Part shown: piece after piece, positions 57,204 to 58,025 of the stretch | How positions within the stretch are numbered: the stretch's first letter is position 1 | Layout of the letters: every line of letters starts with the position of its first letter | Origin: an uncultured bacterium | Lineage (GTDB): Bacteria; Patescibacteriota; Minisyncoccia; Phycocordibacterales; UBA918 | NCBI GenBank assembly: GCA_965652925.1 | Contig: CBFGXL010000001.1 | Location: forward strand, 23,821 to 87,820 | Direction of reading: 5' to 3' | Length of the DNA stretch: 64,000 nt | The notes under the pieces: model-generated | What the model was told of the DNA's origin: nothing | Seen by the model: only the letters and a program-made list of their open reading frames with translations | The model's database searches: none | Made by a program: the position numbers and the translations under genes

Positions 57204-58025
57204 CTAGTTGACAAAGATGATGTACGCGTCATCCAGATCGATCTCATCATCAATCCAATTATATGCTCCTTGAGTGTAGTAAGAGGTCTGGGTGTAGTAG
57301 GAAGTCTGAGTGTAGTAGGAAGTCTGTGCGTAGTAATTTCCTTGGATGTAGTATGAGGTCTGAGCATAGTAGGAAGTCTGAGTGTAGTAAGAACCCTGAG
57401 AATAATAACCACTCTGGCTGTAGTAGCCACTCTGGCTGTAGTAGCCTGACTGAGAATAATAACCACTTTGTCCGTAATATCCGCTCTGTCCGTAATATCC
57501 GCTCTGTCCGTAATATCCGCTCTGTCCGTAATAGGCACCTTGTTCATAGTAACCGCTTTGGCCATATGCAGCCCGTGCTGTGGGTACGAACCAGTTATCA
57601 TTAAAGTTTACCTCTCCTCCTCCACACACTTCTGAGTAATTTCCATTGTCTTCAGTCTCCATATTCTGAACAATGATTACATCTCGAGTTTCTCCATTGC
57701 ATTCAAAATCAGAGAAATACCAATATCCATATTCACTTTTATCTCCCAGCGGATCCTTGTTTATTTCAGGCAAAAACGGTGCAAGCTCAGCATCAATTGC
57801 TTCACCAACACCTATTTCAACGCCATCGCTAAACTCAGGATATTCACCATTCGCCTCCTTGTAGAGTCGTACACCGAGTTTAAGTTGTTCAATATCATTT
57901 ACACGTGCTGAATCTCGCGCTTCTTTTCGCGCATTTAGCACAACAGTGAAAGCAAGAACCGCGAGCGTGACAATGATACCCACTACTGTCATCACTTCAA
58001 TAAGTGTGAAGCCTGTTCTTTTCAT
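57204..58025 (-). CDS. Type IV pilin-like (prepilin N-terminal cleavage/methylation domain) protein with a C-terminal Tyr/Gly/Ser/Gln-rich tandem-repeat tail
   Basis: MKRTG|FTLIEVMTVVGIIVTLAVLAF class-III leader. A globular head paralogous to the neighbouring pilin. Then about 17 hexapeptide repeats: GQSGYY x5, SQSGYY x4, TQTSYY-type x6. The first ATG is at 58025. Confidence 0.7.
   Translation of the reverse strand: MKRTGFTLIEVMTVVGIIVTLAVLAFTVVLNARKEARDSARVNDIEQLKLGVRLYKEANGEYPEFSDGVEIGVGEAIDAELAPFLPEINKDPLGDKSEYGYWYFSDFECNGETRDVIIVQNMETEDNGNYSEVCGGGEVNFNDNWFVPTARAAYGQSGYYEQGAYYGQSGYYGQSGYYGQSGYYGQSGYYSQSGYYSQSGYYSQSGYYSQGSYYTQTSYYAQTSYYIQGNYYAQTSYYTQTSYYTQTSYYTQGAYNWIDDEIDLDDAYIIFVN
57263..57570. 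repeat. 18-nt (hexapeptide) tandem repeat array, about 17 units, inside the pilin-like gene
   Basis: Near-identical units such as gtccgtaatatccgctct x4 and tagtagccactctggctg x2, encoding GYYGQS/GYYSQS/SYYTQT on the minus strand. Confidence 0.8.

What the first reader, a model, noticed from the sequence alone, without database searches (positions are those of the whole stretch)
57263..57570. 18-nt tandem repeat array: a candidate contingency locus
About 17 near-perfect 18-nt units, several runs 100% identical, lie inside the pilin-like ORF. Such arrays are prone to slipped-strand or recombinational expansion and contraction. Because the unit is a multiple of three, that would change the tail length in frame. 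This is a plausible mechanism for surface variation.
Basis: seen in the sequence. Interest (0 to 1): 0.5.

Follow-up and report, generated by a model that had tools for sequence, protein, structure and literature searches.

The report
Tyrosine-rich repeat loop in a pilin
The 18-base repeat is real, but its DNA copies are degenerate; it encodes a roughly 100-residue, tyrosine-rich, probably floppy surface loop inside a type IV pilin of an ultrasmall (CPR-like) bacterium, and its copy number was the same in every strain examined, so it does not behave like a rapid on/off or size switch.

Summary
The array exists: 16 full units plus 1 partial 18-nt unit at window 57258-57563, minus strand. It lies inside a 273-aa type IV pilin gene (57204-58025). 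It is not near-perfect. Mean pairwise DNA identity between units is 61%, and only three units are identical (a 65-nt exact tract). The conserved thing is the peptide x-Q-x-x-Y-Y. Gln and Tyr-Tyr are invariant, while synonymous sites are as scrambled as random draws would give.

The array is not a tail. A paralog, about 160-aa family members and AlphaFold2 all show it as an insertion between the disulfide-bonded pilin head and the conserved last beta-strand. It is predicted disordered, and S+Y+G+Q make up 83% of it (FUS-like composition).

Fourteen samples read at the DNA level all carry 17 units, and 23 contigs carry the identical protein. One of the 14 samples has a second allele with a mosaic patch: 24 substitutions within 163 nt covering units 1-6.

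Syntenic orthologs have about 12 units, about 7 units, or an inserted beta-rich domain flanked by a few units. About 30 related loci have no array.

Verdict: this is a selected, slowly evolving coding minisatellite that also varies by recombination. It is not a demonstrated contingency locus. The xQxxYY module recurs in other surface proteins and matched no Pfam or NCBIfam model.

The parts
57204..58025 (-). Type IV pilin-like gene, 273 aa plus stop. The leader is MKRTG, followed by the cleavage motif G|FTLIE with Glu at +5.
   Evidence: ORF list. TIGR02532 IV_pilin_GFxxxE scores 19.6 against a cut-off of 16.3. The family profile hits PDB type IV pilins and GspG at E 1e-9 to 1e-5. AF2 predicts a pilin fold.
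57849..58004 (-). Long N-terminal alpha-helix of the pilin (residues 8-59).
   Evidence: AF2 model mcd988d126b4b predicts helix H8-59 with pLDDT 93-97.
57615..57848 (-). Globular pilin head (residues 60-137), containing the invariant Cys109 and Cys134.
   Evidence: AF2 predicts strands E100-109 and E112-120 with pLDDT 87-95. C109 and C134 are invariant in the 20-sequence alignment.
57258..57563 (-). Array of 16 full units plus 1 partial 18-nt unit, encoding x-Q-x-x-Y-Y (residues 155-256). Composition: Y 33, S 18, G 17, Q 17, T 9 of 102 residues.
   Evidence: AF2 pLDDT is below 50 for residues 138-253.
57469..57533 (-). The only long exact period-18 tract (65 nt). Units 3-5 are identical (GGACAGAGCGGATATTAC).
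   Evidence: Logan k=31 contigs stop at 57504 and restart at 57498, exactly at this tract.
57267..57410 (-). Higher-order duplication of a 72-nt block (4 units); the two copies are 79% identical.
   Evidence: TRF period-72 row and the repeat finder family D1.
57462..57624 (-). Polymorphic mosaic patch, covering the end of the head plus units 1-6. Allele 2 (ERZ27320636) has 24 substitutions here (5 nonsynonymous) and none in the other ~5.1 kb.
57207..57257 (-). Acidic linker (WIDDEIDLDD) followed by the conserved last beta-strand AYIIFVN (residues 257-273), which docks back on the head.
   Evidence: AF2 predicts strand E268-271 with pLDDT 82-91. It aligns with the C-terminal strand of the repeat-free family members and of the paralog.
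58075..58563 (-). Adjacent paralogous pilin gene (162 aa). It lacks the repeat insertion and ends ...GSYIIVLKE.
54913..57180 (-). The smc gene, starting 23 nt downstream of the pilin stop codon. The pilin-to-smc order is conserved in relatives.
   Evidence: Pfam SMC_N, E 2e-65. Synteny in L020, L101, L102 and about 30 metagenome loci.

Best explanation
**What it is.** The array is a coding, DNA-degenerate minisatellite. It specifies 17 copies of the hexapeptide x-Q-x-x-Y-Y. These form a roughly 100-residue loop rich in Ser, Tyr, Gly and Gln, with almost no charged residues. The loop is inserted in the C-terminal variable region of a type IV pilin, between the second conserved Cys and the last beta-strand, in a CPR/Paceibacterota-like bacterium.

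**Shown.**
- The pilin identity of the gene.
- The insertion site of the array.
- The predicted disorder of the loop.
- Peptide-level conservation combined with randomised synonymous sites.
- Constant copy number in the sampled population.
- A mosaic second allele.
- Different insert contents in syntenic orthologs.

**Inferred.**
- The loop projects from the pilus surface.
- It acts as a flexible, tyrosine-based adhesive or cohesive element, or as a spacer.
- It grew by occasional duplication of units and 4-unit blocks, and its most recent duplications are units 3-5.
- Selection maintains the peptide and probably the length.
- Short-term diversity arises mainly by homologous recombination of short patches, not by high-frequency slippage.
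For: **Pilin identity.**
- The G|FTLIE motif is present, and TIGR02532 scores above its cut-off.
- The family profile hits PDB pilins.
- AF2 predicts the core at pLDDT above 90.

**Insertion, not tail.**
- The paralog and the roughly 160-aa family members align on both sides of the array.
- AF2 docks residues 260-273 back on the head, while residues 138-253 have pLDDT below 50.
- P0003 carries a beta-rich domain at the same site, tethered by low-confidence YY linkers.

**Selection on the peptide, not the DNA.**
- The first two bases of the Gln codon are invariant in all 17 units.
- The first two bases of both Tyr codons are invariant in the 16 full units.
- Third codon positions are mixed.
- Of 464 same-amino-acid codon comparisons between units, 226 use different codons.
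- Tyr codon identity between units is 0.55, against 0.556 expected for independent draws.

**Stability.**
- The identical 273-aa protein occurs on 23 contigs.
- The gene is DNA-identical in 12 samples, and a 13th differs by one SNP outside the array.
- Look-ups through neighbouring genes show 273 aa wherever the gene is complete.
- Allele 2 has the same 17 units despite 24 differences in 163 nt. Its longest exact tract is only 47 nt, so its unit count is secure.

**Growth and turnover on long timescales.**
- Three exact tracts and a 72-nt block duplication are present.
- The two alleles carry different homogenised runs: units 3=4=5 in allele 1, units 3=4 in allele 2.
- Syntenic orthologs upstream of smc carry about 7 units (L101) or a domain plus about 5 units (L102). 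P0001 carries about 12 units; only a truncated downstream gene was seen for it and no DNA was available.
- About 30 related pilin-smc loci have no array.

**Linker or sticker role.**
The same repeat forms interdomain or terminal segments in unrelated secreted proteins and in other pilin families.
Against: - No reads were available. All population evidence comes from low-coverage (about 2.6-6.7x) short-read consensus contigs of one very closely related population (99.56% identity or more).
- A k=55 de Bruijn graph would give the observed 65-nt tract as the shortest path for any array with 3 or more identical units. Heterogeneity in units 3-5 of allele 1 therefore cannot be excluded.
- The two alleles carry independently homogenised units, so unit-level exchange does occur.
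- The AF2 disorder call rests on a shallow alignment of 20 sequences.
- The adhesive or spacer function is pure inference.
- Whether this is a major or a minor pilin is unknown, and no pilus machinery was found in the parts of the window that were scanned.
Confidence: 0.65

Rival explanations
1. Contingency locus: frequent slipped-strand or unequal-recombination events add or remove 18-nt units in frame. This would give a population of pilins with loops of different length, for surface or size variation.
For: - Three identical units form a 65-nt exact tract.
- The two alleles have different homogenised runs, so unit-to-unit exchange has happened.
- Orthologs differ in unit number.
- Logan k=31 assemblies break at the tract, and short-read graphs cannot count units inside it.
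Against: - All 14 samples read at the DNA level have 17 units, and 23 contigs carry the identical protein.
- Allele 2 is about 15% diverged over units 1-6 yet has the same count.
- Mean unit identity is 61%, and synonymous sites are randomised.
- Outside units 3-5 there is no substrate of identical repeats.
Confidence: 0.12
2. The array folds into a defined repetitive structure, such as a beta-solenoid or hairpin stack, or a cross-beta 'tyrosine zipper' between neighbouring subunits. This would form a structured sheath or appendage on the pilus rather than a disordered loop.
For: - The period is strictly 6 residues, with invariant Gln and Tyr-Tyr over 16 units.
- Purifying selection acts on the peptide.
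- The FUS-like S/Y/G/Q composition is known to be able to form cross-beta polymers (background knowledge; the FUS SYGQ LC literature is listed in PMC10643395).
- The AF2 alignment was shallow.
Against: - AF2 gives pLDDT 31-39 across the array and finds no secondary structure.
- The same is true for the YY linkers of P0003.
- Unit number is free to vary among orthologs, and runs of 2-5 units serve as linkers in other proteins.
- No solved structure matches the array.
Confidence: 0.15
3. Cassette-type antigenic variation, as in Neisseria pilE/pilS: the mosaic patch in allele 2 would be copied by gene conversion from a silent partial pilin copy elsewhere in the genome.
For: There are 24 substitutions confined to 163 nt at the head/loop junction, with identical flanks. 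Pilins are classic targets of such systems (background knowledge).
Against: - No second copy of the array or of the pilin 3' region exists in the 64-kb window.
- Only one alternative allele was seen among 14 samples.
- Import from a diverged strain by ordinary homologous recombination explains the patch equally well.
- The rest of the genome was not available.
Confidence: 0.06
4. Neutral low-complexity expansion: a tolerated, functionless insertion in a permissive surface loop.
For: Most related pilins at the same locus lack it. The site also accepts whole domains.
Against: - The peptide motif is kept while synonymous sites are saturated.
- The same motif recurs in many unrelated secreted proteins.
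- Both alleles keep the length and the motif.
Confidence: 0.08

Closest known systems
Type IV pilins / class III signal-peptide proteins (PilA, PilE, GspG, ComGC)
   Same: - Prepilin cleavage motif G|FTLIE with Glu5.
- An N-terminal helix of about 50 residues.
- A beta-sheet head with a Cys pair.
- A variable, exposed C-terminal region.
   Different: It carries a 102-residue tyrosine-rich repeat loop between the second Cys and the last strand. No solved pilin matched this part. The gene sits next to smc rather than in a pilus operon.
Ser-Asp (R) repeat region of staphylococcal ClfA/Sdr adhesins
   Same: - An 18-bp DNA unit that encodes a hexapeptide of a low-complexity, non-globular segment of a surface adhesin.
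- In-frame copy-number changes are possible.
- clfA R-domain types differ by 18-bp copies among isolates (PMC6968884).
   Different: - The sequence is unrelated (xQxxYY, not SD).
- Here the array is a loop within a pilin head, not a wall-spanning stalk.
- No strain-to-strain copy-number polymorphism was found.
Simple-sequence contingency loci and size-variable surface proteins (e.g. Neisseria/Haemophilus repeat tracts, Mycoplasma Vlp, GBS alpha C protein) (background knowledge)
   Same: A tandem repeat inside a surface-structure gene, with a unit that is a multiple of three.
   Different: Those arrays consist of near-identical DNA units and are polymorphic between close isolates. This one is 61% identical on average and is length-invariant in the sampled population.
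FUS/FET-family SYGQ-rich prion-like low-complexity domains
   Same: - S+Y+G+Q make up 83% of the residues.
- Tyr is regularly spaced.
- The array is nearly uncharged and is predicted disordered.
   Different: This segment is bacterial, extracellular and strictly hexameric, with Tyr-Tyr pairs. There is no homology, and no evidence here for phase separation or fibril formation.

Membership tests
Type IV pilin (prepilin-type N-terminal cleavage/methylation proteins) | N-terminal motif G|F-x-x-x-E after a short basic leader | tested here: met
   The sequence reads MKRTG|FTLIEV. TIGR02532 scores 19.6 bits against a cut-off of 16.3. Pfam N_methyl scores 18.6, just under its 21.2 cut-off.
Type IV pilin (prepilin-type N-terminal cleavage/methylation proteins) | Long hydrophobic N-terminal helix packed on a beta-sheet head | tested here: met
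   AF2 predicts helix H8-59 plus strands at pLDDT above 90. The top Foldseek PDB hits are pilins but are weak (E 0.23 or higher). The sequence profile hits PDB pilins at E 1e-9 to 1e-5.
Type IV pilin (prepilin-type N-terminal cleavage/methylation proteins) | C-terminal Cys pair bounding a variable region | tested here: met
   C109 and C134 are invariant in 20 family members. Disulfide formation itself was not tested.
Type IV pilin (prepilin-type N-terminal cleavage/methylation proteins) | Prepilin peptidase and assembly ATPase/platform in the same genome | not testable with these tools
   None was found among the ten window ORFs scanned, and the rest of the genome is not available. Another YY-repeat pilin (P0026) does sit in a PilT/PilC/PilD operon.
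Contingency locus (hypermutable tandem repeat) | Tract of identical or near-identical DNA units | tested here: not met
   Mean pairwise identity is 61%. Only units 3-5 are identical, and the exact tracts are 65, 38 and 35 nt long.
Contingency locus (hypermutable tandem repeat) | Copy-number polymorphism among closely related strains or within a population | tested here: not met
   There are 17 units in all 14 samples read at the DNA level, 23 contigs with the identical protein, and two alleles of equal length. Read-level heterogeneity was not testable.
Contingency locus (hypermutable tandem repeat) | Repeat change alters expression or the product of a surface/host-interaction gene | tested here: met
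   The unit is 6 codons inside a pilin ORF, so any unit change would be in frame. This shows potential only.
SD-repeat-like in-frame 18-bp VNTR stalk (ClfA/Sdr R region) | 18-bp degenerate unit encoding a low-complexity spacer | tested here: met
SD-repeat-like in-frame 18-bp VNTR stalk (ClfA/Sdr R region) | Sequence homology (Ser-Asp dipeptides) and isolate-level length polymorphism | tested here: not met
   The peptide is xQxxYY, and no length polymorphism was seen. The clfA behaviour is taken from PMC6968884.
FUS-like SYGQ low-complexity domain | Composition dominated by S, Y, G and Q with few charges; disordered | tested here: met
   Y 33, S 18, G 17 and Q 17 of 102 residues, with a single Glu. 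AF2 pLDDT is below 40.
FUS-like SYGQ low-complexity domain | Tyr-dependent phase separation, hydrogel or cross-beta assembly | not testable with these tools
   This needs biochemistry.

The most novel reading that the evidence does not exclude
The xQxxYY hexapeptide array is a member of an undescribed extracellular low-complexity module with FUS-like S/Y/G/Q composition. Ultrasmall bacteria have grafted it repeatedly onto surface proteins: at least three pilin families, an S8 protease, FN3 proteins, a HINT protein and multidomain enzymes. On this pilin it would coat the filament with tyrosine 'stickers'. These would mediate multivalent adhesion to the host cell or cohesion between pili. Loop length would be under selection, and allelic patches would be exchanged by recombination.
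Probability: 0.2. Interest if true: 0.65.

Novelty: new variant of a known kind. Interest (0 to 1): 0.4.

Why it matters
Type IV pili are conserved in CPR/Patescibacteria and are thought to mediate their attachment to host cells (abstract of PMC11623550, seen).

A pilin whose exposed face carries a 100-residue, nearly uncharged, tyrosine-rich loop is a concrete candidate adhesion determinant. It is also an example of a eukaryote-like 'SYGQ' low-complexity sequence used outside a bacterial cell.

For genome scanning, the case is a useful caution. A striking in-frame tandem repeat in a surface gene is not necessarily a hypermutable switch. Codon-level degeneracy and population comparison can separate selected peptide repeats from contingency tracts.

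Tried and rejected
**Searches that led nowhere**
- The genome-contig scan with the pilin was swamped by generic GFTLIE pilins of Proteobacteria. It gave only one useful locus, the Paceibacterota MAG L020.
- The exact protein and allele 2 are absent from the clustered protein collection, so cluster membership could not reveal length variants.
- Literature searches for the peptide strings found nothing.
- The 2026 CPR 'Pam' pilus paper concerns an unrelated donor-strand pilus.
- Pfam and NCBIfam have no model for the repeat. The weak collagen/SclB hits (E 0.015-0.044) are compositional noise.
- Foldseek of the full model against the PDB put pilins at the top, but not significantly.

**Readings considered and rejected**
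- A DGR-type mechanism was rejected. The substitutions in the patch are not adenine-specific, and no second copy of the array exists in the window.
- The antisense ORFs over the array (57263-57604 and 57468-57635 on the plus strand, and 57170-57601 on the minus strand) are frame artefacts of the repeat.
- The hairpin linking the last unit to the smc start (z = -2.4) is not conserved in orthologs, so it is not part of the explanation.
- The extra 158-aa 'gene' in L014 is a duplication junction, not a third pilin.

Full report
**1. The observation**

Window 57258-57563 (minus strand) holds 16 full units plus one partial 18-nt unit in one reading frame. TRF gives overlapping period 18/36/72 rows over 57271-57557 with scores of 76-183 (plus one period-9 row at 42). 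No other array in the 64-kb window exceeds 64. The period-18 self-match is 0.69, against 0.266 +/- 0.029 (maximum 0.385) in other 306-nt windows. The periodicity is therefore real and far beyond chance.

The array is not 'near-perfect':
- Mean pairwise unit identity is 61%, and adjacent units are 69% identical.
- Only three exact period-18 tracts exist: 65 nt at 57469-57533 (units 3-5 identical), 38 nt and 35 nt.
- A 72-nt (4-unit) block duplication at 79% identity is superimposed.

**2. What the repeat encodes**

The ORF 57204-58025 (minus strand, 273 aa) starts MKRTG|FTLIEV. Several results identify it as a type IV pilin:
- TIGR02532 (IV_pilin_GFxxxE) passes its cut-off.
- Pfam N_methyl is just below its cut-off.
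- A profile of the family hits solved type IV pilins and GspG at E 1e-9 to 1e-5.
- AlphaFold2 gives a confident pilin fold, with helix 8-59 and a beta-sheet head at pLDDT above 90.

The units encode x-Q-x-x-Y-Y. The series runs GQSGYY, SQSGYY, TQTSYY and variants. The 102 residues contain Y 33, S 18, G 17, Q 17, T 9 and a single charged residue.

**3. A loop, not a tail**

- The adjacent paralog (58075-58563, 162 aa) and about a dozen family members of roughly 160 aa end with the same last strand: YIIFVN, YIIVLKE or YVVLIN. They lack everything between the second conserved Cys and that strand.
- In the AF2 model, residues 260-273 (pLDDT 82-91) dock back on the head. Residues 138-253 have pLDDT below 50 and no secondary structure.
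- Other members carry, at the same site, a beta-rich domain flanked by short YY runs (P0003-P0006; AF2 of P0003).

The site is thus a permissive, presumably outward-facing display position. The exposure is inferred from the known architecture of type IV pili.

**4. Selection acts on the peptide, not the DNA**

The first two bases of the Gln codon are invariant in all 17 units. The first two bases of both Tyr codons are invariant in the 16 full units. Third positions are mixed.

Among all pairs of the 16 full units, 226 of 464 same-amino-acid codon comparisons use different codons. The fraction of identical Tyr codons (0.55) equals that expected for independent draws from the array's own codon usage (0.556). 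Most units are therefore old copies held by purifying selection. Only units 3-5 look recent. This is the opposite of the near-identical tracts that make contingency loci hypermutable.

**5. Population evidence**

- The identical 273-aa protein is on 23 contigs from different ENA and Logan samples.
- Twelve samples read at the DNA level have an identical gene. One has a single SNP outside the array.
- Look-ups through the neighbouring paralog, a variant of it, and smc show 273 aa wherever the gene is complete. These look-ups are not biased towards the same pilin.
- The contigs are 99.56-100% identical to the window.
- Logan (k=31) contigs end at 57504 from one side and start at 57498 from the other. 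That is exactly what the 65-nt exact tract predicts, and they break nowhere else in the array.

Caveat: for k=55 the 65-nt tract is also the shortest graph path for any number of identical units of 3 or more. Heterogeneity in that block cannot be excluded without reads.

**6. A second allele**

One sample (ERZ27320636, loci L189/L199) carries an allele of the same length and the same 17 units. It has 24 substitutions, all within window 57462-57624, which covers the end of the head and units 1-6. There are none in the remaining ~5.1 kb. A rough calculation puts the chance of such clustering under a uniform distribution at about 1e-33.

Details of the patch:
- Five changes are nonsynonymous: V147I, R151H, A153G, S157A and G158T.
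- The allele-2 residues (IPTAHAGY) are closer to the family consensus.
- The substitutions are not adenine-specific, which argues against a DGR.
- No second copy of the array lies in the window.
- The simplest reading is a short import by homologous recombination from a diverged lineage.

Allele 2's longest exact tract is 47 nt, so its count of 17 units is secure. In allele 1, units 3=4=5 are identical. In allele 2, units 3=4 share a different sequence. Unit-to-unit homogenisation has therefore occurred independently in the two lineages, yet total length is unchanged.

**7. Deeper comparison**

The pilin-to-smc gene order is conserved. Two orthologs sit directly upstream of smc, with SMC 76% identical over its full length (L101) or 90% over the N-terminus (L102), and the pilin head only 52-59% identical:
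- P0002 (L101) has about 7 units.
- P0003 (L102) has a domain plus about 5 units.

P0001 has about 12 units; only a truncated downstream gene was seen for it and no DNA was available.

A Paceibacterota MAG (L020) and about 30 metagenome loci with SMC N-termini 77-91% identical also have a pilin gene 4-24 nt upstream of smc. These pilins are 156-203 aa, and none has a YY array. The array is thus a lineage-restricted insertion whose unit number changes on evolutionary timescales.

**8. The module elsewhere**

The array alone was searched against 1.84 billion representative proteins. It found only 81 proteins at E of 1e-3 or less. True xQxxYY runs occur in:
- other pilin families (P0021; P0026, which lies in a PilT/PilC/PilD operon);
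- an S8 protease (P0067);
- FN3 proteins (P0028, P0033);
- a HINT-domain protein (P0020);
- a 1025-aa multidomain protein (P0039), as three interdomain linkers;
- several small secreted proteins.

No Pfam or NCBIfam model, solved structure or paper in the searched library matches the repeat.

**9. Interpretation**

The best-supported view has four parts:
- The array is a selected, disordered, tyrosine-rich surface loop in a type IV pilin.
- It was built by past unit and block duplications.
- It is stable in length in the present population.
- It diversifies by recombination at its base.

Its mode of action is inferred, not shown. It could be a flexible spacer or a multivalent Tyr-based 'sticker'. 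The inference rests on composition (FUS-like S/Y/G/Q; see the FUS SYGQ literature listed in PMC10643395), on predicted disorder, and on the module's use as linkers or termini in other surface proteins.

The closest DNA-level analogue is the 18-bp Ser-Asp repeat of staphylococcal clfA. That repeat, unlike this array, differs in copy number among isolates (PMC6968884). The contingency-locus reading remains possible only for the three identical units, and I give it about 12%.

**10. Scores**

The repeat itself is an ordinary kind of feature: a coding tandem repeat in a surface protein. The peptide module and its placement in a pilin loop matched nothing in the libraries or papers searched. Novelty: new variant of a known kind. 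Interest: 0.4.

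Noticed in passing
window 57188-57201 and 57270-57283: A perfect 14-nt inverted repeat. One arm lies in the last full YY unit. The other lies 8 nt upstream of the smc ATG (57180). The predicted mRNA hairpin has dG -34.9 kcal/mol and z -2.4, and could couple smc translation to pilin translation. It is absent from the orthologous loci L101 and L102.
   Followed up: partly
window 54913-58025; L020, L101, L102, L103-L138: A pilin gene immediately upstream of smc (gap of 4-24 nt) is conserved across a Paceibacterota-like lineage. The pilin is hypervariable (30-59% identity), while the SMC N-terminus is 77-91% identical. The reason for this linkage is unknown.
   Followed up: partly
L014/L202 (ERZ27320638 NODE_3279), equivalent to window 58314-58870: The contig contains a 557-nt tandem duplication spanning the rnc 3' end and the 5' half of the paralogous pilin. 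This creates a chimeric 158-aa ORF. It could be a real duplication or a misassembly.
   Followed up: partly
L189/L199 (ERZ27320636 NODE_987), equivalent to window 57462-57624: A mosaic second allele of the pilin: 24 substitutions in 163 nt with identical flanks. This is a signature of a short recombination import at the head/loop junction.
   Followed up: yes
window 59510-60415 (-): A single 301-aa ORF fuses NusB (residues 7-136) to a NUDIX hydrolase domain (residues 167-281).
   Followed up: no
window 39171-40487 (-), tandem repeats at 40390-40480: A sigma-70-like protein, judged by eye from its translation (no family scan was run). It has a Lys/Ala-rich KKxxKK repeat extension of about 75 residues at its N-terminus, encoded by the period 12/24 repeats that TRF reports.
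   Followed up: no
window 51785-52237 (-), tandem repeats at 51825-51880: Ribosomal protein S16 with an Ala/Glu-rich C-terminal tail, encoded by a period 15/18 repeat.
   Followed up: no
window 1-64000: No tRNA or tmRNA gene was detected in the whole 64-kb window.
   Followed up: no
window 58062-58072: A GGGCGGGGGG run (C6 on the coding strand) lies in the 49-nt spacer between the paralog's stop codon and the repeat pilin's ATG. It is too short to call a phase-variable tract, and it was identical in all loci that covered it and were compared.
   Followed up: partly
L183 (GCA_964412135.1, CAYPNC010000106.1) 286-6744: A type IV pilus operon: PilT-like ATPase, PilC-like platform, prepilin peptidase and four pilin-like genes. 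Its last pilin (P0026) ends in a C-terminal xQxxYY tail. This is an independent occurrence of the module in another pilin family.
   Followed up: partly
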